NCBI GenBank assembly: GCA_038254115.1 | Contig: JBBSGK010000001.1 | Location: forward strand, 67,778-131,777 | DNA: 64,000 nt | Direction: 5' to 3' | Source of the DNA: Candidatus Levyibacteriota bacterium | Lineage (GTDB): Bacteria > Patescibacteriota > Microgenomatia > Levybacterales > UBA12049 | Part shown: positions 12,978 to 38,705 of the stretch, piece after piece | How positions within the stretch are numbered: the stretch's first letter is position 1 | Layout of the letters: the number at the start of each line of letters is the position of its first letter | The notes under the pieces: generated by a model | Seen by the model: the letters and a program-made list of their open reading frames with translations, nothing else | Told to the model about the DNA's origin: nothing | Database searches by the model: none | Program-made: the position numbers and the translations under genes

Positions 12978-15101
12978 ATGCCCAAGAGAAGACGAAGTAG
13001 CGGAAGACGCAGGAAACCGTTTAAGCTAAAACTCAAAACAAAAACAATCTATACGATATTTGGTATAGGATTTTTCCTGCTCGGCGTATTTTTACTTCTG
13101 GTCTATATCAAGCCTACAGATTCTACAACCGTTTTGACAAATAAGCTTAATGAAATGTTCGGATCCTTGACGATTTTGGCCCCTCTTATTTTGGTTCTCA
13201 TAGGATTCTTATTCCTGCATCTAAAATTCTATTTATCACGTTTGAATGTAACAATTGGATATATCCTGCTTTTTGTTTCGCTCATAGGACTCACAAAGAG
13301 TGGTTCTATAGGAAATGGGATTTTCTCAATTCTTAAAGAGATTATTACAGTGCCTGGTGCTGACATGGTTTTTATCACAGGAATTCTTGTCGGTATTATT
13401 GTTCTTTTGGATACATCCATTGATGAGATGATTAGTTTTATCGGGAGCGTTTTCAGTACCTTAAATAAATTAATTCCAAGAAAAATATTTTCATCTTTTA
13501 AAAAAGATAAAAACTTGTTTGATAGAAATAAGCCAATGACCATAAAAGGCGGAAAGAGAGAGGAAGAGCCATTGTCTCCAAAAATTAATCAGCCTCCGGT
13601 AATACAAAAAAAGGAGCTTGAAATGCTTCCTCAGACGCTAGTAAGTAATGTTTTGGGCGGAGATACACCCGGGGTTTGGGAATATCCACCTCTTTCTCTT
13701 TTGTCTGAGGAACCCGGGAAGAAAGCCGAGCGGGGAGATATCAAGGAGATTGCCGGAACTATTGAAAAAACGCTTGATAGTTTTGGAATAGCGGCCCGCG
13801 TAGCCGAGGTCAATTTGGGTCCTGCCGTTACGCAGTATGCGCTTGAGATTGCGCAAGGTACAAAAATTTCAAAGATCACCTCTCTTACCAATGATTTGGC
13901 GCTGGCAACAGAGGCACCAACCGGTCAGATCAGAATTGAAGCACCTATTCCGGGGCGGAACTTAATTGGTATAGAAATACCTAACAGATCGCTTGAGGTA
14001 GTGACGCTTAGAACAATGCTTGCATCAGCCGCCATGCAAAAATCAAAATCCAAACTTACAGTTGCCTTGGGACTTGATGTATCAGGTAGTCCGATCGTTG
14101 TAGATATCGCAAAAATGCCACACGTTTTGGTTGCCGGTACGACGGGATCCGGAAAATCAGTACTTATCAATTCATTCATATCAAGTCTTCTATTTAGAGC
14201 ATCTCCTCAGGAAGTCCGTCTTATTCTGATTGATCCAAAGAGGGTTGAGTTCACAGGATACAATGGGATTCCGCATCTTTTGACACCTGTAATCGTTGAG
14301 TCGGATAAGATCCTTTCCGCTTTGAAATGGGCAATGGGTGAGATGGATAAAAGGTATAAAATTTTTGCAGAACGGGGAGTGCGTAACATTGATTCTTATA
14401 ACGAGCTTTCAGGATTTCAGGCACTTCCTTATATTGTTATTTTTATAGATGAGCTTGCCGATCTTATGATGTTTGCGCCGGTTGAGGTGGAGGATGCAAT
14501 AGCGCGTCTTGCGCAAATGGCCCGTGCAACCGGTATTCACTTGGTGATTGCGACCCAGAGACCATCAGTTAACGTCATCACAGGTCTTATAAAGGCCAAC
14601 GTGCCAGCTCGTATAGCATTTAGCGTTTCGTCAATGATTGACTCCCGCGTAATAATTGACTCCCCTGGTGCTGAAAAACTCCTAGGCCGTGGGGACATGC
14701 TTTATATACCGCCTGATCAGGCAAAGCCCACCCGTATTCAAGGCGCATATATTGAAAAAGAAATAAAACTACTGGTTGATTTTCTCAAATCCAAAAATTA
14801 CCCTGTTGAGTATACAGAAGAAGTAACAAGTCAGCCCTTAATAATTAAAAAAGGAGGAGCTGCTCAGGAAGGAAAGGATGGAGAGCTTGAGGAAGCGATA
14901 AGAGTTGTATGTCAGTTCAATACAGCATCCGCATCTTTTTTGCAGCGGAAAATGTCAATTGGTTACGCAAAAGCTGCCCGCATTCTTGATCAGCTTGAAG
15001 AGATGGGCATTGTCGGAATGGCAGAAGGTTCAAAACCACGGGATGTATTGGTCAGAAACGCTGAGGAATTTCTAGCCTCACAACAGCAGGGAGGGCAATA
15101 A
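12978..15101 (+). CDS. ftsK: DNA translocase FtsK/SpoIIIE
   Basis: N-terminal TM segments, Walker A GTTGSGKSV, the motor domain, and a C-terminal gamma winged-helix. Confidence 0.9.
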   Translation: MPKRRRSSGRRRKPFKLKLKTKTIYTIFGIGFFLLGVFLLLVYIKPTDSTTVLTNKLNEMFGSLTILAPLILVLIGFLFLHLKFYLSRLNVTIGYILLFVSLIGLTKSGSIGNGIFSILKEIITVPGADMVFITGILVGIIVLLDTSIDEMISFIGSVFSTLNKLIPRKIFSSFKKDKNLFDRNKPMTIKGGKREEEPLSPKINQPPVIQKKELEMLPQTLVSNVLGGDTPGVWEYPPLSLLSEEPGKKAERGDIKEIAGTIEKTLDSFGIAARVAEVNLGPAVTQYALEIAQGTKISKITSLTNDLALATEAPTGQIRIEAPIPGRNLIGIEIPNRSLEVVTLRTMLASAAMQKSKSKLTVALGLDVSGSPIVVDIAKMPHVLVAGTTGSGKSVLINSFISSLLFRASPQEVRLILIDPKRVEFTGYNGIPHLLTPVIVESDKILSALKWAMGEMDKRYKIFAERGVRNIDSYNELSGFQALPYIVIFIDELADLMMFAPVEVEDAIARLAQMARATGIHLVIATQRPSVNVITGLIKANVPARIAFSVSSMIDSRVIIDSPGAEKLLGRGDMLYIPPDQAKPTRIQGAYIEKEIKLLVDFLKSKNYPVEYTEEVTSQPLIIKKGGAAQEGKDGELEEAIRVVCQFNTASASFLQRKMSIGYAKAARILDQLEEMGIVGMAEGSKPRDVLVRNAEEFLASQQQGGQ

Positions 15102-15233: not shown

Positions 15234-15860
15234 ATGATTAGGTTTGGGCAAAGACTGAAAGACGAAAGAATTAGGCGTATGCTGACGCTTGATGACGTTT
15301 CGGTTGCCACCAAAATCAAGCGCGATTTTCTTGCTGCCATTGAGCGCGAAGCTTACGATGAGTTGCCTTCTCCTGCGTATGCAAAAGGCTTTGTCCAAAA
15401 TTATGCGGATTTCCTCGGACTTCCAAAAATCCAAAGCTCAGCACTTTTCAAACGTGATTTTGATGAAAAAAGAGCAATGAAAGTATTGCCTGAGGGAATG
15501 ACAAATTCGCGGACCATTCCTTTAAAACGAGTCAATATAAGAAGTTTTGTTGTTGGAGGATTAATTCTATTAATGCTAGCCGGTTTTTTCTTATTCCAAA
15601 CCCGGGATATGTTATTCGCGCCTTCAATCCATATTACATCACCAAAAGAAGGAAGCGTTGTTTCGCGTGATGTTGAGGTAGCGGGTACGACAAGCAGCAA
15701 CGGTATAGTTACAATAAACAATAATCCGGTATTTGTAAAAGATAGTGGAGTGTTTGTTAAAAAAATTACACTTTTCCCAGGTAAAACAACAATAATAATA
15801 AAATCAAAAAACAGATTGGGTAAAGAGTCCTCTCAAACTGTAAACCTGATTGTGAAATAA
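15234..15860 (+). CDS. RodZ-like HTH (XRE) membrane protein
   Basis: The N-terminal HTH FGQRLKDERIRRMLTLDDVSVATKIKRDFLAAIE is followed by a TM segment and a C-terminal beta domain. Confidence 0.65.
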   Translation: MIRFGQRLKDERIRRMLTLDDVSVATKIKRDFLAAIEREAYDELPSPAYAKGFVQNYADFLGLPKIQSSALFKRDFDEKRAMKVLPEGMTNSRTIPLKRVNIRSFVVGGLILLMLAGFFLFQTRDMLFAPSIHITSPKEGSVVSRDVEVAGTTSSNGIVTINNNPVFVKDSGVFVKKITLFPGKTTIIIKSKNRLGKESSQTVNLIVK

Positions 15861-16662: not shown

Positions 16663-17622
16663 TTAGAGTCCGTATTTTTTTATATTTGCGTTGTGTTCCT
16701 CAAGAGTTCTTGCATAATGGTTTTGTCCCGATTTATCTGAGATATAATAAAGATAATTTGTGTTGGAAGGATTAAGAACGGCGCTTAGAACATCAATACC
16801 CGGATTGGAAATCGGACCCGGTGGAAGTCCACTATGCTCATAGGTATTGTATGGTGAAGAAATTTTGAGGTCATCAAAAGTCAGTTCTTTTTTCCACCAT
16901 GTTTTGCTGCTTGGCTGGTAACCTAGGGCGTATTGGATTGTTGCATCAATCTGAAGAGGCATTCCTTGCTTTAGACGGTTTAAGACAACGGAGGCCACAA
17001 TCGGGCGGTCTTTATCGTGTTTTGCCTCTCTTTCTACCATAGAGGCGACTATAACTACTTGATCTTTGGACAATTTATTTTGACTACCTGCATTTATGCT
17101 ACTATATTTTTTCTCAAAATTGGCTCTCATAATATCTATGATTTGTTCAATTGTTGATTCTTTGGGAAATGAGTAAGTGTCTGGAAAAAGGTATCCCTCA
17201 TAAATAATTAATTTGCCGCGCCAACTTTCCTGAAATGTTGGGAATCTTTCACTCAATTTATCGGCAATTTCCTGTGCTCTTTTACCCTCTGGGATTACAA
17301 TATGAAAATCAGATGTACCAACCTGGAGAGCTTTTGCGATATCGACAGCGCTCATTGAGGGGGATAATTGGAAATCTCCGGCTTGAATTTTTTGATCAAG
17401 TCCGAATTTCTTGACAACTATAAAAAATATAACAGGATCTTTTATGAGATCCTCAGATTTCAAATGGCTGGCAATTTCCCGGACTCCTTCACCCTTTTTA
17501 ATAATAAAAGTTTTTTGACTTTTGTCCGATATATCAGCTGCAGCAGTAGCATTGACCCACCAAGCAAGTATTCCTCCTAGAATCAAAACTAAAAATACTA
17601 TTAAAAAGGAAAATTTTCTCAT
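16663..17622 (-). CDS. mltG: Endolytic murein transglycosylase MltG (YceG-like)
   Basis: N-terminal TM segment and YceG-family body (VIVASMVEREA, GLPPGPISNPG). Confidence 0.85.
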   Translation of the reverse strand: MRKFSFLIVFLVLILGGILAWWVNATAAADISDKSQKTFIIKKGEGVREIASHLKSEDLIKDPVIFFIVVKKFGLDQKIQAGDFQLSPSMSAVDIAKALQVGTSDFHIVIPEGKRAQEIADKLSERFPTFQESWRGKLIIYEGYLFPDTYSFPKESTIEQIIDIMRANFEKKYSSINAGSQNKLSKDQVVIVASMVEREAKHDKDRPIVASVVLNRLKQGMPLQIDATIQYALGYQPSSKTWWKKELTFDDLKISSPYNTYEHSGLPPGPISNPGIDVLSAVLNPSNTNYLYYISDKSGQNHYARTLEEHNANIKKYGL

Positions 17623-17629
17623 AATCCAA

Positions 17630-18898
17630 TCAATACTCCAATATAGGAAATTGTTTAAGTGAATCTACCGCCTCTTTAAGATTGTAAGCGCTTTCACTAT
17701 AAAGCGTATATATAGGTTTTCCGGCTATTACTTCCTCACCAATTTTTTTATCAAGATATATACCGCTTTTTTTCTGAGCTGGCGCGCCCAAAATTTTGGC
17801 GATTGCGGTTATATATCTGCTATCTACTTTTTTAACGACACCATGTATTTTGGATAAAACCACATGTGAATGATTTCCCGGTTTCATATCTTTGCTCATT
17901 ATACCAGATTCACCGCCTTGGGCTTTTATTATTTGTTTCATTTTCAAATGAGCATGCCCGTTGGACAAGATGTATTCAGCCCATTTGTGTCCTGTTCCAA
18001 ATTCTTTTTTAATTCTGTTATTTAGGGAGTTTGATGCATCTTTTAGGCAAAGATCCAAGAGGGCGCCTGCAAGATGCACCGCTTTTTGCTCAAGATCTAC
18101 CGGTCTATCAGGATTTTGCTCAAGAACCATCATTGCGTCCCGCGCTTCAAGAAGAGGGCCGATTCCCCGGCCGGCCGGTTGTTCTGTATTATGAATTAAA
18201 ATTTTTATTTTAACGTTGAATTTATGAGCCAAATACTCAAATTTTCTTTTGACCTCTTCAGCGTCCCTAAGTGAATGAACCTTTACGTGTTCGCCGTATG
18301 GTAAATCAATAACGATGTGATTTGACCCGAAAGCGATTTTCTTTGCCATTATTGAAACCAAAATCTTATCAAAACTCTCAAGGCCTAGTGGTTCTTCTAC
18401 TTTTATCAACTCATCATCCGCTGGTGCTATATCGACTCCTCCTCCCCATACGATGCATGCGTTTGTTTTATCGACAATTCTATAAATATGTTCTTTATCA
18501 AATGTCACAGGACTTATGACTTCCATATCATCCGCAGTCCCGCCAGGAGTTGTAATTGCGCGGCTTGAGCTTTTGGGAATTGTAAATCCTGCTGCAGCAA
18601 CAATGGGCACGACGATCATGGTCGTTCTGGTACCAGGTACTCCTCCTATTGAATGTTTGTCGGCAACCAGACCTTTGAATTTGAGTGTTTCGCCCGTTTT
18701 GATCATCGCCTCTGTTAGAAAATAGAGTTCTTCATTGTTAAATCCTTGTGCGTATCCTGAGGCTGCGAAATAAGTCGTAAGAACTGTGCCCAATTGATGG
18801 CGGCTAATCTCATCCATGACCGCGAAAATTTGTTGGTAGTTTAGTCTCTTTCCGCCTAGTTTGGTTTGAATGGCATCAACTGCTTTCTGATCAATCAT
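17630..18898 (-). CDS. Thymidine/pyrimidine-nucleoside phosphorylase family enzyme (possible AMP phosphorylase)
   Basis: DKHSIGGVPGTRTTMIVVPIVAAAG and TTPGGTADDMEV correspond to the DKHSTGGVGD motif of glycosyltransferase family 3 phosphorylases. Confidence 0.8.
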   Translation of the reverse strand: MIDQKAVDAIQTKLGGKRLNYQQIFAVMDEISRHQLGTVLTTYFAASGYAQGFNNEELYFLTEAMIKTGETLKFKGLVADKHSIGGVPGTRTTMIVVPIVAAAGFTIPKSSSRAITTPGGTADDMEVISPVTFDKEHIYRIVDKTNACIVWGGGVDIAPADDELIKVEEPLGLESFDKILVSIMAKKIAFGSNHIVIDLPYGEHVKVHSLRDAEEVKRKFEYLAHKFNVKIKILIHNTEQPAGRGIGPLLEARDAMMVLEQNPDRPVDLEQKAVHLAGALLDLCLKDASNSLNNRIKKEFGTGHKWAEYILSNGHAHLKMKQIIKAQGGESGIMSKDMKPGNHSHVVLSKIHGVVKKVDSRYITAIAKILGAPAQKKSGIYLDKKIGEEVIAGKPIYTLYSESAYNLKEAVDSLKQFPILEY

Positions 18899-19058
18899 AA
18901 TAATTATTCGCCTTTTATCATGGCAATTGCGTTTTTAAAGAAGTACTTGATAATGCCTAAAATGAAATAAAAAGTAGAATTAAGTACACGGTAAATAAAC
19001 GGCCAAATCTTACGTAAAAAAATTATAAATTTTGATTGCTGAGAATTTTCTTCCATAT

Positions 19059-19802
19059 TTATGATTTTTCGAGTTTTGATTTAACTATCAATCTTTTCCA
19101 AGTCGTACCAGGGGGTGTACAAGTAACAATATCAAGATAATTTGAATCGTAGCCTTGTGTCAAATAGGACGTATCCTCAGGCTCGGTAATTAGCATAGTA
19201 AAAATTTTATATGTATACAAAGTATTATTTGCACTTACGATAATATTGTCTCCAATGCTGAGTTGATGTATATTGGCAAAAATGGTTTTGTAATTTTTGC
19301 TGTCATAAAGCTGAGGTAGCGTTGAATGGCCAAAGACAGCAGCAGTTCCCTTATTCGGCGGAATCGCAGTGCCCGGGAAATGGACAAGATGAGAGGAAAG
19401 ATCCGTATCAACCGTTGAAACAATCGCATTTTCTATATTCAATTTTGGTATAGATATAAAATAAGTTGACACATTCTCAACAGTAGATGTCTCTTTATAT
19501 GTAGGCGGAAGCCAATTTGCAGCATTATTATAATCAATTCCGGACAAATTATTTGTGGTGTTCGCAATAAGACTTCCCATATAATCTTTACTTAAAATTG
19601 TATTTTTAGGAATTGGTGAAGCGTAAGATTTAGTTGAAAATTCAGGACTTATGTAAATCTCCCACGATAGCAATGGAAAAAATATATATAATCCGATCAC
19701 AAAACCGATAATAGAAATACCAAGTCCTAAGAAGCGCACCATTTTTTTGACATTTTTTTTCTTTGTTTTTTTGTAAACGTGATTACTCATTGGGTTTAAC
19801 AA
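19059..19802 (-). CDS. Sortase (class A/E-like transpeptidase)
   Basis: N-terminal TM segment, catalytic His context VFGHST, and the TLxTC motif as LDIVTCTPPG. Confidence 0.8.
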   Translation of the reverse strand: MLNPMSNHVYKKTKKKNVKKMVRFLGLGISIIGFVIGLYIFFPLLSWEIYISPEFSTKSYASPIPKNTILSKDYMGSLIANTTNNLSGIDYNNAANWLPPTYKETSTVENVSTYFISIPKLNIENAIVSTVDTDLSSHLVHFPGTAIPPNKGTAAVFGHSTLPQLYDSKNYKTIFANIHQLSIGDNIIVSANNTLYTYKIFTMLITEPEDTSYLTQGYDSNYLDIVTCTPPGTTWKRLIVKSKLEKS

Positions 19803-22101
19803 TTATGCTTATATTCTTAGGAAGCATCGGGAAAAGACTGGATAGAAACAAAATATTTGGAGAGAACTTTATTTCAGATTCGGCAATTTGGGGAAGGCTA
19901 TTCAAAATCTCTTTTGCATTTTTTGGAGATTTATTTTTCAATTTGCTAACTACTTCATTGTTGTCAATTTTTGGAAGAAGGCCAGTAGTGATTTTAAGCT
20001 TTGCAGAAATCTCATTGTCATTTTTTATTTTTGAGTCTTTAACTTCATTTTTCAAACTCTTGTCAGCAAAGCTTATGTCTTGTGAATAATGATCTTTTAA
20101 AACAGATTTATCATAGTTTTCCAAATCATCATTTTGATAACTCATCCCATCAAAACTCACCGTTGCCACTAATTTAACTTCCTTTGCTTCATCATCCACT
20201 CCCTTGTCAAATTTTGTTTTTCCTAATGTGATTTTTGAGAAACCCGGAAGAAGAGTCTCACTGGGCCCGATTTTTTTTGAAAGCTCATCCGCTGCTTTTT
20301 TTTCAAGACTTTTGGGTAAGTCCGATTTTAATTTTGCAAGATCAGCTGCACTTACAACTGTTATATTCTTTTTACTTCCTCCCGAAAAAGCGCTGTCATT
20401 TTTTCCGGCAAGACTGCTGTTGCTGCCGATCGCAAATTTTGCATTTGATGGAAGATTTGATTCAGTACCCAAATCTTTTGCAGTTACACCTACCTGAGCA
20501 GTTCCCGGTTTGGTTCCTGAAAAAATATCACCCGATGCTGACGCGATGTTTATATCCTTATCAGTTGTAAAAATTATTCCGTTACTTGATTTAAGACTTG
20601 TCCCGCTGCTAAGTTGGACAGGGTTTTCAGAATTATTATAAATGGTTACACTGCCTTTAGCTTTATTTCCTGCGTCTTTCTTACCGGTTGCAGGAGTGGA
20701 TAATTCGCCGTCAATATCCGTTGAAATACTGTGCGCGGCAATGATATTTTTGGAAAAATCATTCGCGCCTGTTGTTGAAAAAGTGACATTGGAGTCTTGT
20801 GTAACAATTTTGGGTTTAACAGTTAGGATTATTTGAGCTTTTACGCTATAAAAATAAAATAGGGATAAAGCGACAACAAATATTAAAATAGCGCCAATAA
20901 TTATAAGAGGAAGTTTCAAGCTTTTATTTTTGGCAAAAAAATTAGAAACGCTTTTTATCCTTGGAAATGAAAATTGGGGCACCATAGCTAATGCACCCGC
21001 GAACGTGCTATTCTTTTCTCTTTTGGATTTTGGGGTATTATCGTTTTCATAAGTATTTATTTCAGCGTTTGTGCCATTTAAGTTTACATTAGATTCTTCA
21101 CCGGAAATAGTTTCATTTTTTTGTACTTCAATTTTCGGCGATTGATCAATAGCTTCATCTGCTGCAATTTCCACCACACTTTCTTTGACCGACTGTTTGG
21201 CAATATCCTGATCTTGAACAAAACCAAAATTGCCGGGCTCCGCAGGAGATGGGGTAGTAGGCTCGATATATTTTTCCTCTTGGATTTGATCATTTTTATC
21301 CAGTAAATTTTCGTCAGATTGTACTTTTTCCAGCAATCCGAGTATCTCAAATCCCATTTGTTGGCCGGCTCCATATGTTACCGCTCGGGTATCATAGTCT
21401 TTGGGTAAAACGCTTACAAGCGGCGGGTGTAGAAAAGGTAAGCTTTTACTCCATTCGTGATTTATGAAATGATGAGACAATTCCTTGGCATCTTTTGTGT
21501 GGAAAAGCAGAATTTTAGTTGGTAGCACTGCAGCGGTAAAATTTTTGAGCAGTGAATCAACTGTCGCAGGAATAGAGTGCGCAATTAAGCCTGAAATCGA
21601 TTCACTTACTTTTCCCCCCCTGAAAAGGGTGAGGTGAGCTGTTTTTTTGCCTACATCAATCAAAATAGCCGATAGAGGAGATCCTTCCTCATGCGCCAAT
21701 AAATTTGCAATAGCTTCATTTATTACTATAAAGCCAATTGGATTTAGATCAAGCTCATCACATACTTTTTTGAGTTTTATAAGGTATTCTTTTTTTATTT
21801 TTTTAGATTCAGTATCTACCCAATTTTCTTTTACACCAAAAATTGTTTTGTGAGTTTCTATATTTGGAGGTAAAACTTCCTCCGCTTTTGAGATAGTTTT
21901 GTCGATGAGCGTTATTAGTTCATCTTGCGGGATGGTTTCCAGAGTTAATTCGAAGTGCTCAGTATGTTTACCGACAATTTTTAGTTTCCCCTCCTCTTCT
22001 TCCAGAATTACACTGCTTGTTTTTTCATAATCCAAAATAAGCGCCAGGTAATACCCTTTGTCTTTACCCTTTTTATTTAAAAATGGAATAGGCAGCTTCA
22101 T
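19783..22101 (-). CDS. Actin-fold (FtsA/PilM-like) N-domain fused to a single TM segment and an S/G/T/N/K-rich extracellular region
   Basis: LALILDYEKTSSV and ILIDVGKKTAHLTLF resemble the two phosphate-binding motifs of FtsA/PilM. A TM segment is at LPLIIIGAILIFVVALSLFYF. The gene overlaps the sortase start by 20 nt. Confidence 0.5.
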   Translation of the reverse strand: MKLPIPFLNKKGKDKGYYLALILDYEKTSSVILEEEEGKLKIVGKHTEHFELTLETIPQDELITLIDKTISKAEEVLPPNIETHKTIFGVKENWVDTESKKIKKEYLIKLKKVCDELDLNPIGFIVINEAIANLLAHEEGSPLSAILIDVGKKTAHLTLFRGGKVSESISGLIAHSIPATVDSLLKNFTAAVLPTKILLFHTKDAKELSHHFINHEWSKSLPFLHPPLVSVLPKDYDTRAVTYGAGQQMGFEILGLLEKVQSDENLLDKNDQIQEEKYIEPTTPSPAEPGNFGFVQDQDIAKQSVKESVVEIAADEAIDQSPKIEVQKNETISGEESNVNLNGTNAEINTYENDNTPKSKREKNSTFAGALAMVPQFSFPRIKSVSNFFAKNKSLKLPLIIIGAILIFVVALSLFYFYSVKAQIILTVKPKIVTQDSNVTFSTTGANDFSKNIIAAHSISTDIDGELSTPATGKKDAGNKAKGSVTIYNNSENPVQLSSGTSLKSSNGIIFTTDKDINIASASGDIFSGTKPGTAQVGVTAKDLGTESNLPSNAKFAIGSNSSLAGKNDSAFSGGSKKNITVVSAADLAKLKSDLPKSLEKKAADELSKKIGPSETLLPGFSKITLGKTKFDKGVDDEAKEVKLVATVSFDGMSYQNDDLENYDKSVLKDHYSQDISFADKSLKNEVKDSKIKNDNEISAKLKITTGLLPKIDNNEVVSKLKNKSPKNAKEILNSLPQIAESEIKFSPNILFLSSLFPMLPKNISIIVKPNE

Positions 22102-22118
22102 ACAAATTTATATTTCAA

Positions 22119-24002
22119 TCAAAATTGACCAACAGTTGCATAAATTCTCCGTTGTTTGTTACCGATATTTTCCTGCCTTATAATCTTAAACGATTTTAAC
22201 TTTGATGTAAAATCAACATGAGGTCCTCCACAGAACTCAATTGAATATACTTCTCTCAGATTCTTGGAATCGCCTCCGATAAAATAAATTTTGGATGTAT
22301 CTTGATAAGTATCTGTAAATAATCCGATTGCCCCCATTTTTCCGGCCGTTTCTGTCGGAATCATTTCAAAATGAACCGGTAAATTCTCCTTTATCTTTTT
22401 TATCACTGTTTGTTCCAACTGCTTTATCTCATCATCCGTCAACTTACGGTCAAAGTTAAAATCAAATCTTACCCGCTCGGTTGTGATATTGGATCCTGTC
22501 TGGTGAAGTTGTTTTCCAAACATATCACGAAGCGCCTGATGCACAAGATGAGTTGCGGTGTGTCCCATGATTGTCCGTTCCTGATGGTCTGCAAGCCCGC
22601 CTTTAAATTTTTGTCCTGCCCCCGCTTTTGATAAATCTTTATGACCTTTCATCTTTTCAGCAAATGCTTTTTCATCAAAAGTGTATCCTAGGCTTTTAAT
22701 TTGTGTAGGAGATAGTCCATGAGTTGTATAAATAATAAACGTATCTTCTGCTGAAATTTCAATTGATCCCATTAGTTCGTCTTCAGTTTGTTTGGACGGT
22801 GGATATTTTTTAATCAAAAATAACTGGGCCCTCGTCAAGCTTTGCTGATATTTATTTGTTTCCTCAAGAATTGTATTCTTAATATTTTCAAAATTTGTTA
22901 CTAGGTCAGGATCTGTTTCTTTATATTGGTCAACTATTATTTCAATAATTTGATCTAGACCATGCCTGCCGGCAGGCAGGTTTTTTCCCTCCAATTTATT
23001 AATACTGTCAATAGATCTTCTTATCAACCGCCTTAAAATATACCCTTGTTCGGTGTTTGAGGGATTTACGCCTGCGTTAACTATAAATACGCTTGATGAG
23101 AGATGCGCAGTGATCATGCGCATTTCGCGAATATTTTCCTGATATTTTTTGCCTGATAGTTTTTCAACAGATTGAATAACAGGTTTGAATAAGGAAGTTA
23201 AAAAAACATCGGATTGATTTTCAGCCGCCATTAACAACCGCTCAACACCTGCTCCATGATCGACATTCCTTTGGGGAAGCTTGGCAAAACTGCCATCGTT
23301 TTGTTTTATAAATTCCATAAAAACATTATTACTGATTTCGAGATAACGTCCGCAGTCACAATTGATATGGCATTTATAATTTCTATATTGAGAATTTTCG
23401 TGAAGTTTTAATTCCGCTCCGAAGTCATAAAAAATTTCACTATCAGGTCCACCCAATTCACCTGAGGGCATGTTTTCCGGTACTCCCGCTCTTGACCACC
23501 AGTTTTTTTCGGGACCATAGGGAAATATTTTGCTTTTCGGATCCAACCCAATTCCGTTAAATATTTCAGTCCAGATTGAAATTGCTTCCTGATCTTTTGG
23601 AAATTCTTTATACTCATCAAAAACACTAACATAAATTTTCTTCGGATCAATTCCCAAATCTTTTGTGATATATTCAAAAATCCAGTTAAGCTGTTCTTTT
23701 TTGAAATAGTCACCCAGTGACCAATTGCCAATCATTCTAAAAAAAGTAAGGTGCCTGTTGTCGCCGACTTCATCAATGTCATCAAGCGCTCCTTGACCCC
23801 GAAAAACATTCTGGACATTAACAAATCTTTTCCCCTGCGGATGCGGCTCCCCAGCAAGATATGGAATGAGTGGCTGCATGCCGGAGTTGGTAAAAAGTGT
23901 TGTCGGGTCGTTAAGTGGCACAAGAGGAGAGTTGGGGATTTTTTTATGCCCCCTTTTTTCAAAAAATTTTATATATTTATCAATAATATCAAACGCCGTC
24001 AT
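22119..24002 (-). CDS. alaS: Alanyl-tRNA synthetase, short form ending after the editing domain (no C-Ala domain)
   Basis: LFTNSGMQP, FFRMIGNWSLGDYFK, and editing motifs HTATHLVH / CGGPHV. Length 627 aa. Confidence 0.9.
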   Translation of the reverse strand: MTAFDIIDKYIKFFEKRGHKKIPNSPLVPLNDPTTLFTNSGMQPLIPYLAGEPHPQGKRFVNVQNVFRGQGALDDIDEVGDNRHLTFFRMIGNWSLGDYFKKEQLNWIFEYITKDLGIDPKKIYVSVFDEYKEFPKDQEAISIWTEIFNGIGLDPKSKIFPYGPEKNWWSRAGVPENMPSGELGGPDSEIFYDFGAELKLHENSQYRNYKCHINCDCGRYLEISNNVFMEFIKQNDGSFAKLPQRNVDHGAGVERLLMAAENQSDVFLTSLFKPVIQSVEKLSGKKYQENIREMRMITAHLSSSVFIVNAGVNPSNTEQGYILRRLIRRSIDSINKLEGKNLPAGRHGLDQIIEIIVDQYKETDPDLVTNFENIKNTILEETNKYQQSLTRAQLFLIKKYPPSKQTEDELMGSIEISAEDTFIIYTTHGLSPTQIKSLGYTFDEKAFAEKMKGHKDLSKAGAGQKFKGGLADHQERTIMGHTATHLVHQALRDMFGKQLHQTGSNITTERVRFDFNFDRKLTDDEIKQLEQTVIKKIKENLPVHFEMIPTETAGKMGAIGLFTDTYQDTSKIYFIGGDSKNLREVYSIEFCGGPHVDFTSKLKSFKIIRQENIGNKQRRIYATVGQF

Positions 24003-24360
24003 ACTGCATAATTATAGCATGAATTATTGTCCGGGATAAGTTATGGGGTTATGGGGTGCCTATCTACCTTTTGACCTGATTATTACGGTTTCGCTAGCTG
24101 GCCTAGTACGTAAGCGAGCGTTTCTTTCTGTCTGGTCAACTTCTCTAAGATCGTCTTTAAGTCTTTTAAGTCCTGGGCTATTGGGTTTTAATCCCAGCCA
24201 ATCACTTAAATTTCGACCTAATCTTATTCCTGGCATCTCAATAACACGAGAAGCAGGTGGGGTTTGCGAAGACACATTTCTCTCAATAGCCATAAACTTA
24301 TATTATCATAGAATTTCGATAAATCAAGTTTCAAGTTAGTTTTTATGGTATTATGTAGTC

Positions 24361-27669: not shown

Positions 27670-28686
27670 ATGAACATTCCAACAGTTACACACAACGGTC
27701 TTTCTTTTATTAATCTAAATAAACCAACAGAGGCGGACATAAAATTTCTTAATAAAAATTTTGGTTTTAGCATGCTTAATCTTGAGGATTATCTGTACAA
27801 AACTCAAATCCCAAAGTTTGAGACATATAAGGATTATTCTTTACTTGTGCTGGATGTTCCTTTTATCCCGCAAGCAGGTAAGTCAAAAAAAGAAAGATCA
27901 GCAAACAAACCTTTTTTTATTCCAAATGCTATCTCAAATAGAATATCTCTCCCGATTTTTCCAAAAGCAGCAAGGAAAAAACGGATAAGCGTCGGTGAGG
28001 TAGATTTTTTTATTGGGAAAGACTATGTTGTAGTTCTTCACGACGAGAGTACACCGCAAATTGATGAGCTATTTGAGATGTGTAAGATTACATCAAAGCA
28101 CAGGGAAGAGTTGATGGGACGAGGCGCTGTTTATCTTCTATACCGCATTATAGATATTTTGGTTGACGGCGCTTTTTCATATATTGAGGATATTACAACG
28201 ACAATTGATGTGATTGACCGCCAGATTGAGGACAGCAAGTCTGCATCAGTCATTGAAGATATTTCCATGACTCGGCGCAATATTGTTGTTTTTGAAACTA
28301 TGATCAAGCCTGCACTTCCGATATTTGCAGACTTGGAAAAGGGGAGATATAAGGAATTGAATGGTGAGATGATGCCTTACTGGTCAAATATCCTAGACCA
28401 TTTGCAGAAAATTTGGGAGAGACTTGAGGACAATAAAGAGTTGATTCAAGGTATCTCATCAAGTCACGAATCCATTCTTTCAAATAGAAGTAACGAGCTA
28501 GTTAAATTTTTTACAGTACTTACTGCGATGTCCTTCCCATTTGTTATCGTTAACAATTTGTATTCTATGAATGTTAAGGGGCTGCCGTATGCTAATTCTC
28601 CCTGGATTGTTTGGGTGTTATTTTTGGTGATACTTGCCGGGGCAATGGTTGTAGTTGCTTATTTTAAATACCGCGACTGGCTCTAA
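27670..28686 (+). CDS. corA: CorA-family magnesium/cobalt transporter
   Basis: Two C-terminal TM segments with the YSMNVKGLP loop (GMN-motif variant). Confidence 0.85.
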   Translation: MNIPTVTHNGLSFINLNKPTEADIKFLNKNFGFSMLNLEDYLYKTQIPKFETYKDYSLLVLDVPFIPQAGKSKKERSANKPFFIPNAISNRISLPIFPKAARKKRISVGEVDFFIGKDYVVVLHDESTPQIDELFEMCKITSKHREELMGRGAVYLLYRIIDILVDGAFSYIEDITTTIDVIDRQIEDSKSASVIEDISMTRRNIVVFETMIKPALPIFADLEKGRYKELNGEMMPYWSNILDHLQKIWERLEDNKELIQGISSSHESILSNRSNELVKFFTVLTAMSFPFVIVNNLYSMNVKGLPYANSPWIVWVLFLVILAGAMVVVAYFKYRDWL

Positions 28687-29792
28687 ACTCTTACCTTAAG
28701 GCTTTCTCCTTTGAAGATAATTTTTTTAGGTTTTATAATCACTTGTCTTTCTCCAGTTTCTACATAGCCCGCATTCAAGCTTTCAAAACCATTTTTATTA
28801 ACGATTTCTTGAGCTTTCGCTATATCCTTTTCAGGAAGGAAAATTGCGTAGTCCATTCCCATATTATAAGTGTCATACATTTCATAATCGGTTAAGCCTG
28901 CATGTTCCTGAATAAATACAAATATTTCATGTGGCTCAATAATTTTATCAATAAAATATGTATAATCTTGTCTTGCACGCATTAATTTCCTCATCCCATG
29001 TCCGGTTATGTTTGAGACATAATGAATGTCGATATTTTCATCCAATAAACCCTGAATTAATTTTGCATAAATATTTGTTTTTGTTAAAAGTACCTCTCCA
29101 TATGTTTTACCGCTTGGTAATTTTGTACTATAACCTTTTGGTAGTTGTTTGGCAACTGCGCGTGTTAATGAAATTCCGTTGGCATTTACGCCACTGCTTT
29201 TAACCATCAGTATCCTGTCGCCTGATTTTAATTTTTTATCGGTTATTAATCTATCTTTACTTTTAATCATTCCAATCGCCGATCCTCCAAGCTCTGATGT
29301 TCCGGGGACAACAATACCCTTCATCGTTGGAGTTTCTCCACCGCCCCATGAGACTCCGGCGATATCGCACGCATTCTTCCATCCGTTAATAAGATCCGTC
29401 ATCCTTTTTTCATCAGATAGCCACTCATTGTCCTCAATAGCCCAGTAAGCATGAAGAACAAGAGGTGTTGCGCCTACAGTTATTAAATCATTGATAACTG
29501 TTGCGACAGTATCATGACCGATGTTGTCGTAGTAGGTTTTACCTGTAATTTTTCTGGTGTCGTCTGCGATAAGATTTTTAGTACCCAATCCTTCAATAAC
29601 CGATGCCATGAATACATTCCCTTGTTTCCAAACATATGCTGACTCACCACGGGAGTCTGAAACTTCTTCAAAACCATGTTTCTTTAGATTGATACCGGTA
29701 TTTGCTGCAGCAGATTGAGCCAGTACTTTGACTGGGTCTTTTGTGTCATAGTTATCTCCAACTTCTGAATAAGTAATTTTGTTATTTTTCAT
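28683..29792 (-). CDS. purM: Phosphoribosylformylglycinamidine cyclo-ligase (AIR synthetase)
   Basis: GLGTKNLIADD...DTVATVINDLITVGATPL is collinear with E. coli PurM GVGTKLRLA...LVAMCVNDLVVQGAEPL. Confidence 0.8.
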   Translation of the reverse strand: MKNNKITYSEVGDNYDTKDPVKVLAQSAAANTGINLKKHGFEEVSDSRGESAYVWKQGNVFMASVIEGLGTKNLIADDTRKITGKTYYDNIGHDTVATVINDLITVGATPLVLHAYWAIEDNEWLSDEKRMTDLINGWKNACDIAGVSWGGGETPTMKGIVVPGTSELGGSAIGMIKSKDRLITDKKLKSGDRILMVKSSGVNANGISLTRAVAKQLPKGYSTKLPSGKTYGEVLLTKTNIYAKLIQGLLDENIDIHYVSNITGHGMRKLMRARQDYTYFIDKIIEPHEIFVFIQEHAGLTDYEMYDTYNMGMDYAIFLPEKDIAKAQEIVNKNGFESLNAGYVETGERQVIIKPKKIIFKGESLKVRV

Positions 29793-30436
29793 AGTGATTG
29801 TATTATAGCAGGTGTTAGTTCATCAAAAGATGTAATAATTTTATCAGCACTTTTTAGTTCTTTAGGATGATGCGTTGTGGTAATTGCAATGCATTTCATG
29901 CCAGCACTTTTTGCCGATTTTATACCGTTTGAAGAATCTTCAATCACAATACAATTTTTTGGATCAACATTTAGCATTTTTGCAGTAAGTAGAAATAATT
30001 CAGGATTTGGTTTGCCTTCTGAAACCTGATCACCTCCTGAAACAACTCTAAATTTATCACGGATTCCTAGTATCTTTAAAACTAATTCTACAAAATGAGT
30101 TGGTGATCCGGAGGCAACTCCTAGTTTGTAACCCTTTAATCTATTAATCAAATCAATTATACCTGGAATTGATATAATTTGGTCGTGTGGTATTTTTTTC
30201 ATTTTCAGCCATTTTTTTCTTACTGCCTCGCTAGGAGAGTAGTTAACTGAATGTTTTATAAATTCATTTTTAAACTGTACACCGTCTTTTGTTCCTGAGT
30301 ACAATAAAGTTATTTCTTTTTCTGAGATGTCTATACCATAACTTAAAAAGATTGCGCTTTCAATTTTAGCGTGAATCCTTTCAGTATCGGAGATGACCCC
30401 ATCCATGTCAAAAATAACTGCTCTTATTTTCGTCAT
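29789..30436 (-). CDS. HAD-superfamily hydrolase (beta-phosphoglucomutase/phosphatase-like, subfamily IA)
   Basis: AVIFDMDGVISDTE motif I, and the later motifs IEDSSNG and K. Confidence 0.75.
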   Translation of the reverse strand: MTKIRAVIFDMDGVISDTERIHAKIESAIFLSYGIDISEKEITLLYSGTKDGVQFKNEFIKHSVNYSPSEAVRKKWLKMKKIPHDQIISIPGIIDLINRLKGYKLGVASGSPTHFVELVLKILGIRDKFRVVSGGDQVSEGKPNPELFLLTAKMLNVDPKNCIVIEDSSNGIKSAKSAGMKCIAITTTHHPKELKSADKIITSFDELTPAIIQSL

Positions 30437-31404
30437 ATTTTTTTGCTTAAATTCTTCATTATTCTATCTTCAATCGGGTAATCAAAAGCTTTGAAATTTT
30501 TTCCTGTTATTTTTTCGTAGACGCTGATGTAGCGTTGAGAAGTTGCTAAGATTAATTCCTGGGCCATTTCTGGTGGTCTGCCGTTGCCAGAGTAGCCCTT
30601 TTCTGCGTACCAGAGCCTTATAAATTCTTTGTCAAAATTTTCAGGTTCCAAGTTTTTGCTAAACCTTTCATCGTAAGTATTTGCTATCCAAAATCTTGAT
30701 GAATCTGGAGTATGAATTTCATCTATTAGTATAAGTTTGTCGTCATACAAACCAAATTCGTATTTTGTATCGACAAGTATTAGTCCACTTCTTTTGCATA
30801 GCCTTTGTCCATATTCAAACAATTTAAGCGAGACTTCTTCCATTTGCTCATATAGATTTTGGGGGACCAATTTTTTTCCGATAATTTCTTTTTTGGTCAA
30901 CCGCGTATCATGCCCTCCTTTACCGGTCATATCTCCGTGATATGTAGGTGTAATAACGGGTATAGGAAGTTTTTGATTTTTTTTCAAGCCGTTCGGAAAA
31001 TTAATTCCATAAATTTCCCTCTCACCTTTTTTGTATGAATCCCAAATTGATGTGACAGTAACTCCTGTCATGTATCCGCGTACTACAATTTCAATTGGAA
31101 TCAGTTCGCAGTTTTTTGAAATCAAAACATTTGGATCGGGGACTGAGATCATATGATTTGGAACAATATTTTTTGTTTTCTCAAACCAAAACTCAGCAAG
31201 CTGATTGAGTACGGCCCCTTTGAATGGAACGTATCCAAGCATGACATCAAATGCCGACTGTCGGTCAGTTGTGATAGTTATTCTTTTATCATTTTTAATA
31301 TAAAAGTCGCGGACTTTCCCCTGATGTTTTCTGCCGAGGTTTGGGAGATTTATTGTCTTTAATACATTTGGAAGTGATGTTAGAATTGTTTGTTCATTTA
31401 CCAT
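30433..31404 (-). CDS. purC: SAICAR synthetase (long form)
   Basis: GKVRDFY...TTDRQSAFD match PurC motifs. Confidence 0.9.
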
Positions 31405-31891
31405 CTTGTTTCAATTTTTCATTTTTCGCTTTTACTGTCGATTCCATATTCTTCTTGTACTGTTCGATTTTTGATTGTAACTGCGGATTTGATGTCCCCA
31501 AAATTTCAATTGCCAAAAGTCCTGCATTTTTGGCGCCATTTACAGCTACTGTCGCAACGGGTATTCCGGCCGGCATTTGGGCAATGGATACCAAAGAGTC
31601 CAGACCATCCATAGTACTTGTTTTGATAGGTACCCCAATTGTTGGTAAAGAGGTGAATGACGCGGTCATACCGGGTAAATGTGCAGCCCCCCCGGCTCCT
31701 GCTATTATTACCTTAAGGCCTTTGCCGATAGCGGACTTAGCGTATTCAGACATATAATCCGGTGTTCTGTGGGCCGAAACAATTTCCAGCTCAAAAGAAA
31801 CGCCGAACTCCTCCAACACTTTGGCTGCTTCTTGCATAACAGGGAGATCGGAATCCGAACCCATTATTATGCCGACAAGTGGTTTATTCAT
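31394..31891 (-). CDS. purE: N5-CAIR mutase
   Basis: [14 protein letters not shown]...[10 protein letters not shown]. Confidence 0.9.
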
Positions 31892-33015
31892 ATAGTTATA
31901 TAACTTCCCGCAAGTTTTGCGTTTTTTAAAGCCTCTTCAAGTGTATCCGCAACGGCTGTAATGTGTCCCATTTTACGCTCTGGTTTCGTCTCCAGTTTAC
32001 CATAAATATGTACCTTTACGCCAGGTATTTTTTCAGCAATTTCTACGCCTTTCGGATCTGCATTTCCAGTTCTATTGCCCAAGATATTTATCATAACAGC
32101 AGCAGGAGAGGTTGTCTTGGTTGATCCAAGATTCATTCCTGTTACTGCCCTTATGTGCTGCTCGAACTGGGAAGTTTCATTTGCTTCAATTGTGTGATGT
32201 CCTGAGTTATGAACTCGTGGTGCAATTTCATTAATTAGTACTTCACCATCCTCTGTCAAAAACATTTCAATCCCGAAGACTCCTGCTCCCTTGAGGTGTT
32301 TCATAACTTCAATTCCTAATGCTTTTGCTTTATCTGCAATTTTTTTATCCATAGGTGCAGGGGAGAGAAGATAGTGCAAAATATTATTTTTATGAATTGT
32401 TTCAACCACTGGATAAGTTACAATTTCGCCATTTGTGCTACGTCCTACAATAATAGCCAGTTCTTTAATAAATGGTACAAATTTTTCTACGTACAATTTT
32501 CTTCCTCCAAGTTTGCCTAATGCACTATCAATTTGCGACTCATCTTCTATTAAGGCATTACCCCGCCCATCATATGCATCAAAGCGTGCTTTTAATAAAA
32601 TAGGGTAGCCGAATTTTTCAGCTGATTTTAAAACATCTTTTTTAGTGTTTATATCGAGAAAGTCAGAAACAGGTAGATTATTTGTCTTCAAAAACTGCTT
32701 TTGCAAAAATTTATCACGGATAATCTCAAGAGTTTCAGGAGATGGGTTTATCTTAACGCCTTTTTCTTCGAGTTCTTTTAAAATGTCGGAGTTTGCCAGT
32801 TCAATCTCAAATGTCAGATAATCAGAAATATCTCCAAGCTCCCGGATCGCTTTCTCGTCTTTAAAATCTGCTATTATCTGGCTATCTGCTATTTGACCTG
32901 CAGGACTCTTGGGGGTTGGGTCGATGATATTAACTGTGAAGCCTAATTTTTTTGCAGGAGCGGTCAGCATTCTACCAAGTTGCCCGCCGCCAACAATTCC
33001 AATTCTTTTTTTCAT
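31888..33015 (-). CDS. purK: N5-carboxyaminoimidazole ribonucleotide synthetase (ATP-grasp)
   Basis: [14 protein letters not shown] with an ATP-grasp body. It sits directly upstream of purE. Confidence 0.85.
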
Positions 33016-37685: not shown

Positions 37686-37687
37686 AA

Positions 37688-38704: not shown

Positions 38705-38705
38705 G

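What the first reader, a model, noticed from the sequence alone, without database searches (positions are those of the whole stretch)
19059..22101. Actin-fold (FtsA/PilM-like) domain fused to a TM segment and large low-complexity ectodomain, co-transcribed with sortase
The N-terminal about 270 aa carry both phosphate-binding motifs of the FtsA/PilM family. A single TM helix and a roughly 330-aa S/G/T/N/K-rich extracellular segment follow. The gene overlaps the sortase start by 20 nt. No LPXTG is present, so it is not a substrate. A cytoplasmic actin-like ATPase directly tethered to an extracellular domain next to a sortase suggests a surface-assembly scaffold, for example for pilus or cell-wall protein display.
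Basis: partly seen in the sequence, partly recalled or inferred. Interest (0 to 1): 0.5.

Follow-up and report, generated by a model that had tools for sequence, protein, structure and literature searches.

The report
PilM-like/baseplate-like membrane protein with sortase
A membrane protein conserved throughout one group of ultra-small (CPR) bacteria joins a degenerate PilM/FtsA-type actin-fold domain inside the cell to a folded, phage-baseplate-like domain outside, and is always encoded with a sortase; the architecture is undescribed and its function is unknown.

Summary
The 772-aa ORF (19783-22101, minus strand) is real and the fusion is genuine. Full-length orthologues occur across Microgenomates (Levy-, Gottesman-, Woese-, Shapirobacteria).

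- **Linker and membrane span.** A roughly 140-aa acidic disordered linker follows, carrying an invariant FGF motif, then one TM helix.
- **Sister lineage.** In WWE3/Katanobacteria the same locus holds two genes: a standalone 400-aa PilM/FtsA-family protein and a bitopic protein with the same ectodomain. No sortase is present there.
- **Sortase.** Wherever downstream sequence was available (47 of 47 metagenome loci and the genome loci), the fused gene is followed directly by a catalytically intact sortase, usually with overlapping stop and start.

Best reading: a GspL/PilM-PilN-type transmembrane connector co-expressed with a sortase. The function is inferred, not shown.

The parts
19783..22101 (-). 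Gene X: 772-aa bitopic membrane protein (actin-fold domain, linker, TM, Baseplate_J-like ectodomain); stop codon at 19783-19785
   Evidence: ORF. The top 120 homologues are nearly all full-length. 80 GTDB loci carry it.
22066..22101 (-). Conserved N-terminal peptide MKLPIPFLNKKG (M1 K2 L3 P4 F7 in at least 90% of members); disordered in the model
   Evidence: The same M-x-LPF(L)KK start is present in the unfused PilM-like proteins of WWE3 loci.
21337..22101 (-). Cytoplasmic minimal ASKHA (actin-fold) domain, residues 1-255. It has subdomains 1A and 2A only, with no 1C/SHS2 or 2B insert, and degenerate nucleotide-binding motifs. The W217-S-K-x-L-P-F223-L-H225 motif is invariant.
20917..21336 (-). 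Cytoplasmic acidic, disordered linker of variable length (residues 256-395)
   Evidence: pLDDT below 50 for residues 261-292. Low conservation, variable length, rich in E/K/P/S/D.
21199..21231 (-). Short linear motif NFGFVQDQDIA inside the linker. F292-G293-F294 are invariant in 70 of 70 aligned sequences. The pattern [FLM]GF-x4-D[IV] is kept in relatives only 25-30% identical.
20848..20916 (-). Single transmembrane helix (residues 396-418, KLPLIIIGAILIFVVALSLFYFY); N-in, C-out
   Evidence: Kyte-Doolittle maximum 2.96, the only such segment. No signal peptide; basic residues precede it.
19786..20847 (-). Folded extracellular domain (residues 419-772): long beta-hairpins, a beta-barrel and alpha/beta subdomains
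20374..20676 (-). Baseplate_J-like beta-barrel core (residues 476-576), with the conserved patterns TGxKxxGxxAxGxVTI, AxxxGxxxN and FSGG
   Evidence: Pfam PF04865 22.4 bits against a cutoff of 21.1; hit in 61 of 64 members, best E 2.2e-8. PHROG_6 baseplate wedge E 1.1e-6. Profile hit to diffocin TRI-2, E 0.0014.
19059..19790 (-). Sortase gene (243 aa from the ATG at 19790; the alternative TTG is at 19802). It has an N-terminal TM anchor and the catalytic residues H155, C224 and R233. It overlaps the stop of gene X by 8 nt.
   Evidence: Pfam Sortase E 4.5e-21. No NCBIfam sortase class reaches its cutoff. H, C and R are conserved in at least 95% of 80 orthologues, and the -8 nt overlap occurs in 37 of 80. 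Coordinates checked.
18904..19056 (-). Unannotated conserved 50-aa small membrane protein, packed between the sortase and the next gene
   Evidence: tblastn E<=1e-3 in 64 of 80 GTDB Levybacteria loci, directly after the sortase where positions were checked.
22119..24002 (-). alaS (alanyl-tRNA synthetase), 17 nt upstream of gene X; conserved upstream neighbour and probably the same transcript
   Evidence: Pfam. Synteny. No terminator-like site between alaS, X and the sortase.
16663..18898 (-). Downstream conserved neighbours: a pyrimidine-nucleoside-phosphorylase-family gene (17630-18898) and yceG/mltG (16663-17622)
   Evidence: Pfam. Synteny. In other Microgenomates ruvX occupies the phosphorylase position.

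Best explanation
Gene X is a bitopic transmembrane connector. It arose by fusion of a PilM/FtsA-family actin-fold protein with the membrane protein encoded immediately downstream of it.

Shown:
- The cytoplasmic part is a trimmed actin fold. Subdomains 1C and 2B are lost, and the nucleotide-binding motifs are degenerate.
- It is joined through a disordered linker, which carries an invariant FGF motif, and a single TM helix to a folded extracellular module built around a phage-baseplate-wedge (Baseplate_J) barrel.
- The unfused two-gene version sits at the same alaS...ruvX locus in WWE3/Katanobacteria.
- In Microgenomates the fused gene is followed, usually with overlapping stop and start codons, by a catalytically intact membrane sortase.

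Inferred:
- Like GspL or the PilM-PilN pair, the actin-fold domain acts as a nucleotide-independent docking platform inside the cell.
- The baseplate-like ectodomain oligomerises on the outer face of the membrane.
- In Microgenomates this platform works stoichiometrically with the co-translated sortase. It could position or organise sortase-dependent attachment of surface proteins in step with cytoplasmic or cell-wall growth cues (MltG, RodZ and FtsK are encoded nearby).
For: - Fusion origin: in 16 split-type loci with downstream sequence (about 25 split-type loci in all, including truncated ones), a 400-aa protein precedes a bitopic protein of about 515 aa with the same ectodomain. The WWE3 proteins pass Pfam PilM_2 (51.9 bits, cutoff 27) and FtsA (43.4 bits, cutoff 31.8) and hit M. 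xanthus PilM at E 1e-11. Their profile aligns to the X N-domain over 227 columns (92.9%, E 3.7e-7), and the only large gaps fall where 1C and 2B would be. The M-x-LPFLKK start and the W-[ST]-K-x-[IL]-P-F motif are shared.
- Degenerate motifs.
- Sortase coupling: the GTDB loci with downstream sequence. 47 of 47 fused metagenome loci against 0 of 16 split loci. The pairing is kept when flanks change: ruvX instead of the phosphorylase, or an SBP gene instead of alaS. Overlapping start, and H/C/R conserved.
- Breadth: 1178 clusters at 50% identity contain the N-domain. Named members come from Levy-, Gottesman-, Woese- and Shapirobacteria.
Against: - No function has been measured.
- Fusion and sortase gain may each be a single event at the base of Microgenomates. 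The perfect association then has little statistical weight.
- The sister lineage runs the PilM-like/ectodomain pair without a sortase, so the core function does not need one.
- alaS, ruvX and mltG are housekeeping genes in a deeply conserved block, so adjacency could be inherited synteny.
- No sortase substrate, pilin or partner for the ectodomain was found in the window.
The AF2 monomer model does not dock the motif.
- Loss of ATP binding is inferred from motifs only.
Confidence: 0.5

Rival explanations
1. Cell-division or cell-wall-growth component. X would be an FtsA-derived membrane anchor whose ectodomain acts on peptidoglycan synthesis or remodelling together with MltG, RodZ and FtsK. 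The sortase would be a passenger in a conserved housekeeping operon.
For: - The locus is the ancient alaS-ruvX-mltG block, with ftsK and a rodZ-like gene nearby, in both fused and split lineages.
- The gene is found at one conserved locus in every lineage sampled.
- NCBI names the split-type protein 'cell division FtsA domain-containing protein'.
- The split lineage has no sortase.
Against: - Subdomains 1C and 2B, which FtsA uses to recruit divisome proteins and bind FtsZ (established knowledge), are missing.
- No ftsZ or dcw genes are adjacent.
- At the sequence level PilM scores better than FtsA for the unfused protein.
- The overlap of X's stop with the sortase start is kept across deep divergence.
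- Whether these genomes also have a canonical ftsA could not be checked.
Confidence: 0.25
2. Inner-membrane platform of a pilus-like, secretion or DNA-translocation machine. X would be the PilM-PilN/GspL equivalent of an apparatus whose other parts are encoded elsewhere.
For: - PilM is the best sequence and Foldseek match.
- The architecture is that of GspL.
- In WWE3 loci an ATPase of about 815 aa with HerA/DUF87 and TraG-D_C domains lies just upstream of the PilM-like gene.
Against: - No pilin, PilB/PilC, secretin or T2SS/T4SS gene is in the window or the conserved block.
- alaS intervenes between the ATPase and the PilM-like gene in several loci.
- The ectodomain is unrelated to PilN/PilO/GspL ferredoxin-like domains.
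- ATP-binding motifs, which PilM keeps, are lost.
Confidence: 0.12
3. Remnant or domesticated piece of a prophage or tailocin baseplate, for example a surface adhesin or phage-receptor decoy with no link to the actin-fold domain's ancestry.
For: - NCBI annotates orthologues as 'baseplate J/gp47 family protein'.
Against: - There are no other phage tail genes nearby.
- The gene sits in a housekeeping block and is inherited vertically across a superphylum.
- GC content is the same as its surroundings.
- Similarity is limited to about 100 residues of barrel at sequence level.
Confidence: 0.05
4. Artefactual fusion: a frameshift or assembly error joins two genes.
For: None, beyond the existence of a split version in another lineage.
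Against: The same uninterrupted ORF occurs in hundreds of independent assemblies at 23-100% identity, with the linker and TM always in frame.
Confidence: 0.01

Closest known systems
PilM-PilN inner-membrane pair of type IV pilus machines (e.g. PDB 2ych, 5eou)
   Same: A PilM/FtsA-family actin-fold protein is encoded immediately upstream of, and presumably docks onto, a bitopic membrane protein. The unfused WWE3 version reproduces this gene pair, and its actin-fold protein passes the Pfam PilM_2 threshold. PilM is the top Foldseek hit for the window domain.
   Different: - The partner's ectodomain is a Baseplate_J-like module of about 350 aa, not a PilN/PilO ferredoxin-like domain.
- There are no pilus genes nearby.
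- In the window the two are fused.
- Subdomains 1C and 2B and the ATP-binding motifs are lost.
GspL/EpsL of type II secretion systems
   Same: It is one polypeptide with a cytoplasmic actin-like domain, a single TM helix and an extracytoplasmic domain. From published structures (my own knowledge, not tested here), the GspL actin-like domain does not bind nucleotide. This is the closest architectural analogue.
   Different: - There is no GspE/GspM context.
- The ectodomain fold is different.
FtsA
   Different: - X is tethered by a TM helix and an ectodomain, not an amphipathic helix.
- It lacks the SHS2/1C and 2B subdomains.
- There is no ftsZ neighbour.
- The nucleotide motifs are degenerate.
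Baseplate_J family (P2 gpJ, Mu gp47, T4 gp6, T6SS TssF, PVC Pvc11)
   Different: - It is anchored in the cell membrane and exposed outside the cell.
- It is encoded in a housekeeping operon without any other tail or baseplate gene.
- Only part of the Pfam model (positions 18-109 of 255) is matched.
Sortase operons of Gram-positive bacteria (class A/C/E sortases with substrates or pilins)
   Same: The membrane-anchored sortase has an intact His-Cys-Arg triad.
   Different: - No substrate or pilin gene is adjacent.
- The sortase fits no NCBIfam class (best is class C, 63.5 bits against a cutoff of 160).
- It is paired instead with an actin-fold/baseplate-like membrane protein. I know of no described case, and literature searches found none.

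Membership tests
ASKHA (actin/Hsp70/sugar-kinase) fold superfamily | Two RNase-H-like beta-beta-beta-alpha-beta-alpha-beta-alpha subdomains | tested here: met
   [not shown]
ASKHA (actin/Hsp70/sugar-kinase) fold superfamily | Phosphate-1 (D-x-G-x-x-x-x-K), phosphate-2 (D-x-G-G-G-T) and adenosine (G-G) nucleotide-binding motifs | tested here: not met
   The P1 loop is L-L-[TD]-D-E-K with no glycine. P2 D-x-G is present in 23 of 450 members. The adenosine GG is replaced by L-P/E.
PilM/FtsA family | Match to Pfam PilM_2 (PF11104) or FtsA (PF14450) above the gathering score | tested here: not met
   No actin-like Pfam hit at E<=0.1 in any of 64 fused members, and no PDB sequence hit. The criterion is met by the unfused orthologues in WWE3: PilM_2 51.9 bits, FtsA 43.4-50.5 bits.
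PilM/FtsA family | Descent from a family member (orthology) | tested here: met
   hhalign 92.9%, E 3.7e-7 over 227 columns. The locus is the same, and the N-terminal peptide and the W-x-K-x-[IL]-P-F motif are shared.
PilM/FtsA family | Inserted subdomain 1C (SHS2) and subdomain 2B | tested here: not met
   The domain is 240 residues with no inserts. The hhalign gaps lie exactly at these two positions.
PilM/FtsA family | Binds the cytoplasmic N-terminus of a bitopic partner (PilN) or a divisome peptide | not testable with these tools
   Candidate peptides are the invariant FGF motif in the linker and the conserved 75-aa N-terminal domain of the split-type partner. No multimer prediction was available.
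GspL | Pfam GspL domains and T2SS gene context (GspE, GspM) | tested here: not met
   No such Pfam hit. No T2SS genes in the window.
Baseplate_J (PF04865) | HMM match above the gathering score | tested here: met
   22.4 bits against a cutoff of 21.1 for the window protein. 61 of 64 members hit, best E 2.2e-8. PHROG_6 E 1.1e-6.
Baseplate_J (PF04865) | Structural similarity to solved wedge proteins | tested here: met
   [not shown]
Baseplate_J (PF04865) | Part of a contractile-tail or injection-system gene cluster (sheath, tube, gp25, gp7/TssG partner) | tested here: not met
   None is present in the window or in about 165 related loci. The neighbours are alaS, sortase, ruvX or the phosphorylase, and mltG.
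Sortase (downstream gene) | Sortase domain with catalytic His, Cys (TLxTC-like) and Arg | tested here: met
   PF04203 E 4.5e-21. H155, C224 (IVTCTPP) and R233 are conserved in at least 95% of 80 orthologues.
Sortase (downstream gene) | Assignment to a defined class (A-F) | tested here: not met
   The best NCBIfam score is class C, 63.5 bits against a cutoff of 160. All classes are below cutoff.
Sortase substrate | C-terminal LPXTG-type motif, hydrophobic stretch and basic tail | tested here: not met
   No motif in X. The C-terminus is part of the folded ectodomain and is similar in the sortase-less lineage.

The most novel reading that the evidence does not exclude
The X-sortase pair builds an extracellular structure specific to Microgenomates. 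Membrane-anchored baseplate-wedge domains would assemble into a ring or platform on the cell surface. This platform would nucleate or position sortase-linked surface fibres or a host-attachment organelle. Its assembly would be gated from the cytoplasm through the degenerate PilM-like domain and the FGF linker motif. That would be a cellular, non-contractile re-use of the phage baseplate wedge fold for episymbiotic attachment.
Probability: 0.12. Interest if true: 0.85.

Novelty: new variant of a known kind. Interest (0 to 1): 0.6.

Why it matters
CPR/Patescibacteria make up a large share of bacterial diversity. Those that have been cultivated live attached to other cells, yet the proteins that organise their envelope and surface are largely unknown. 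This gene is conserved across the Microgenomates superphylum: 1178 clusters at 50% identity carry the N-domain. Databases name it only 'baseplate J/gp47 family protein' or 'hypothetical'.

It shows three things of wider interest:
- A clear fusion case that links a PilM/FtsA-type protein to a specific membrane partner.
- A phage baseplate wedge fold placed on the outside of a cell membrane in a housekeeping operon.
- A sortase paired not with a substrate but with a transmembrane connector.

If the pair acts together, it would be a new way of coupling cytoplasmic state to surface-protein anchoring. It would also be a concrete handle on how these organisms build their surface.

Tried and rejected
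- Sequence searches of the whole protein and of a 70-sequence profile against PDB found no actin-fold match. The only hits were diffocin TRI-2 for the ectodomain and a spurious Ap4A-hydrolase hit. NCBIfam found nothing for X.
- Foldseek against AFDB50 was not available.
- A search of the window for LPXTG-type sorting signals and type IV pilin leaders found only chance matches, such as CorA LPYAN.
- Two hops with distant family members were needed to leave the Levybacteria. The first hop, from P0266, stayed inside them. The second, from P0362, reached relatives 23-30% identical and the split form.
- Literature searches for baseplate J, sortase, CPR, Levybacteria, or FtsA in Microgenomates found nothing relevant.
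- I looked for an RNA leader or ncRNA in the 358-nt alaS-glgA spacer. There was no Rfam match and no excess folding energy. The window has no tRNAs.
- I considered that the FGF linker motif is the remnant of the conserved F-x-T-x-D-x-x-G strand in the N-terminal domain of the split-type partner. The register does not match well, so this remains speculation.
- I considered X as a cryptic sortase substrate. This is rejected because the C-terminus is folded and is the same in the sortase-less lineage.
Full report
**What is there.**
- On the minus strand, a 772-aa ORF (19783-22101) lies 17 nt downstream of alaS (22119-24002).
- A sortase ORF follows it. The ORF listing starts the sortase at a TTG (19802, 20-nt overlap). 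An ATG at 19790 gives an ATGAGTAA overlap of 8 nt. The same arrangement is found in 37 of 80 orthologous loci, and nearly all others lie between -29 and +15 nt.
- No terminator-like site lies between alaS, X and the sortase. A promoter-like site lies upstream of alaS (pattern matches only).
- The window is a CPR (Patescibacteria) genome of about 37-40% GC, and the gene's composition matches its surroundings. The closest relative (71% identity) is in a 1.14-Mb Levybacteria chromosome with identical gene order.

**The fusion is real.**
- A search of 5.8 billion proteins returned 647 hits. The best 120 are 43-100% identical and nearly all full-length, at about 730-810 aa.
- 244 GTDB species representatives encode a relative.
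- An exhaustive HMMER search with residues 1-262 alone found 1178 clusters at 50% identity (865 at E<=1e-10, 174 at E<=1e-30). The best 150 are almost all 700-820 aa.
- Named members come from Levybacteria, Gottesmanbacteria, Woesebacteria, Shapirobacteria and 'Microgenomates group' MAGs.

**N-terminal domain.**
- AlphaFold2 with a 70-sequence alignment gives pLDDT above 90 for residues 15-255. The order of elements is beta-beta-beta-alpha-beta-alpha-beta-alpha, twice. This is the bare ASKHA core (subdomains 1A and 2A) with no inserted subdomains.
- At the sequence level the domain is invisible to Pfam in all 64 members tested (E<=0.1), to NCBIfam and to PDB searches.
  - The beta1-beta2 turn is a short L-L-[TD]-D-E-K without glycine.
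  - The window's I-D-V-G-K-K looks like phosphate-2. However, the Asp is Glu in most Levybacteria and H/G/S/N in distant members, and only 23 of 450 sequences keep D-x-G.
  - The adenosine G-G is L-P or L-E.
- What is invariant instead is W217, F223 and H225 (W-S-K-x-L-P-F-L-H) and an N-terminal peptide M-K-L-P-x-P-F-L-x-x-K-K. I infer a nucleotide-independent interaction domain.

**Linker and TM.**
- Residues 256-395 are acidic, variable in length, poorly conserved and predicted disordered.
- One island is conserved: N-F-G-F-V-x-[DE]-x-D-[IV]-A. F292-G293-F294 are invariant in 70 of 70 sequences, and the pattern [FLM]-G-F-x4-D-[IV] survives in relatives only 25-30% identical. This looks like a docking motif.
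- Residues 396-418 are the only TM segment. With no signal peptide, the topology must be N-in, C-out.

**Ectodomain.**
- Residues 419-772 are not low-complexity. Sequence entropy is only slightly below that of the N-domain, conservation is high, and the AF2 model has mean pLDDT 88.5 with no segment below 50.
- Pfam Baseplate_J matches residues 476-575 above threshold (22.4 against 21.1 bits) and hits 61 of 64 members, best E 2.2e-8. 14 of 64 also hit the GlxA barrel model.
- PHROG_6 'baseplate wedge subunit' matches at E 1.1e-6. The family profile hits diffocin baseplate protein TRI-2 in PDB at E 0.0014, with shared A-x3-G-x3-N-(L)-P and F-x-G-G patterns.
- So the outside part is a multi-domain module built around a baseplate-wedge barrel.

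**Sortase.**
- The downstream protein has a Sortase domain (E 4.5e-21) and an N-terminal TM anchor. H155, C224 (IVTCTPP) and R233 are conserved in at least 95% of 80 orthologues.
- It reaches no NCBIfam class cutoff.
- X has no sorting signal, and the window has no substrate or pilin.

**Comparative genomics.**
- All 80 GTDB loci show alaS-X-sortase-phosphorylase-mltG.
- Hopping out through a divergent member and scanning metagenomes with an ectodomain alignment gave 87 more loci. These fall into two types.
- Type A (fused): [ftsK-rodZ-like-...]-alaS-X-sortase-ruvX (or the phosphorylase, or nothing)-mltG.
  - 47 of 47 loci with at least 700 nt downstream have the sortase directly after X.
  - The pairing survives when alaS is replaced by an ABC substrate-binding-protein gene (L088) or when ruvX is displaced (L125, L158).
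- Type B (split): (HerA/DUF87+TraG-D_C ATPase)-(alaS)-400-aa soluble protein-515-aa bitopic protein-ruvX.
  - The bitopic protein has a conserved cytoplasmic domain of about 75 aa, a TM helix and the same ectodomain (HMM E about 1e-48).
  - No sortase is present: 0 of 16 loci, and none even at E<=10.
  - Named type B members are candidate division WWE3/Katanobacteria.
- The 400-aa protein is a true PilM/FtsA-family member.
  - Pfam PilM_2 scores 51.9 bits and FtsA 43.4-50.5 bits. M. xanthus PilM hits at E 1e-11 and S. aureus FtsA at 2.5e-7.
  - Some copies keep canonical D-I-G-S, D-x-G-G-x-x-T and G-G-G motifs (L100, L106, L112). Others have lost them.
  - Its profile aligns with the X N-domain profile over 227 columns (92.9%, E 3.7e-7). 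The two large gaps fall exactly where subdomains 1C and 2B sit. The M-x-L-P-F-L-K-K start and the W-[ST]-K-x-[IL]-P-F motif are shared.
- X is therefore a fusion of a trimmed PilM/FtsA-like protein with its neighbouring membrane partner. The fusion and the sortase appear together in Microgenomates.

**How it most likely works.**
- Shown: the architecture, the ancestry, the loss of nucleotide motifs, the folded baseplate-like ectodomain, and the invariant, usually overlapping sortase gene.
- Inferred: by analogy with PilM-PilN and with GspL, the protein is a transmembrane connector. (That GspL is the same arrangement in one polypeptide with a nucleotide-free actin-like domain is established knowledge, not tested here.) The inside domain would be a docking platform, with the FGF motif and N-terminal peptide as candidate contact elements. 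The outside domain would be an oligomerising platform, since Baseplate_J proteins dimerise and form rings in baseplates (established knowledge).
- Translational coupling suggests it acts with the sortase in about 1:1 amounts. It could place sortase activity relative to wall growth (mltG, rodZ and ftsK are nearby). I give this overall reading about 0.5.
- The main rival (0.25) is a division or wall-growth role in which the sortase is a passenger. It is favoured by the sortase-less sister lineage and the housekeeping block. It is disfavoured by the missing FtsA subdomains and the persistent X-sortase overlap.
- A pilus- or secretion-platform role (0.12) and a domesticated phage remnant (0.05) are less likely. 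An artefact is excluded.

**Comparison and novelty.**
- It works like GspL or PilM-PilN but fails their membership tests: no Pfam match for the fused domain, no 1C/2B, no ATP motifs, a different ectodomain and no T2SS/T4P context.
- The ectodomain passes the Baseplate_J sequence and structure tests but not the context test.
- Databases call the protein 'baseplate J/gp47 family protein' or 'hypothetical', and no paper describing this architecture was found.
- I class it as a new variant of a known kind, the bitopic actin-fold connector.

**Limits.**
- No multimer modelling was possible.
- Whole genomes could not be searched for ftsA, pili or sortase substrates.
- The fused/sortase association may reflect a single ancestral event.

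Noticed in passing
window 18904-19056 (-): An unannotated 50-aa ORF (MEENSQQSKFIIFLRKIWPFIYRVLNSTFYFILGIIKYFFKNAIAMIKGE) with a hydrophobic helix. It starts 2 nt after the sortase stop and ends 5 nt before the next gene. It is conserved at protein level (33-68% identity) in 64 of 80 GTDB Levybacteria loci, directly after the sortase where positions were checked. It was not detected in other Microgenomates.
   Followed up: partly
L087 3-2321; L091 1890-4328; L092, L093, L098, L100, L103, L105, L109 (same position): In the split-type (WWE3) loci, an ATPase of about 815 aa with HerA/DUF87 and TraG-D_C/TrwB-like matches lies just upstream of the PilM-like gene, sometimes with alaS in between. This could be a functional partner or only synteny.
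   Followed up: partly
L087 3569-3800 and equivalents in L091-L113: The split-type bitopic proteins carry a conserved cytoplasmic N-terminal domain of about 75 aa (...D..IE..IPEGSVLFEN..NLKL...F.T.D..G) that is absent from the fused proteins. It is a candidate binding site for the PilM-like protein.
   Followed up: no
window 24003-24360: The spacer between the divergent alaS and glgA genes is an unusually long 358 nt. It has no Rfam match even at E<=1, and its folding energy is no better than shuffled sequence (z -0.18 and -0.46).
   Followed up: yes
window 28683-45904 (-): A long purine-biosynthesis operon. It includes two paralogous DUF1246/DUF1297 genes (34406-35497 and 37688-38704); from memory this domain pair is the archaeal-type PurP, which was not checked here. 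There is also a fused amidophosphoribosyltransferase/formyltransferase-like ORF at 43778-45904. A full purine pathway is notable for a CPR genome.
   Followed up: no
window 49450-51045 (+), 51766-52323 (-), 52429-54366 (+): Three sizeable ORFs have no Pfam match. One is a 531-aa soluble protein overlapping the end of a CofE-like gene. One is a 185-aa Arg-rich ORF. One is a 645-aa polytopic membrane protein with a GTG start.
   Followed up: no
window 15234-15860 (+) and 12978-15101 (+): A RodZ-like protein (HTH_25, TM, Glucodextran_B-like C-terminal domain) lies next to ftsK. The same pair lies upstream of alaS-X-sortase in other Microgenomates.
   Followed up: partly
L003-L082 record titles: Many MAGs carrying this Levybacteria-type locus are labelled 'uncultured Gammaproteobacteria', 'Limnocylindrales', 'Lysobacterales', 'Methylomirabilota' and the like in their records. 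Their gene order is that of Levybacteria, so these labels look like placeholder or wrong taxonomy.
   Followed up: no
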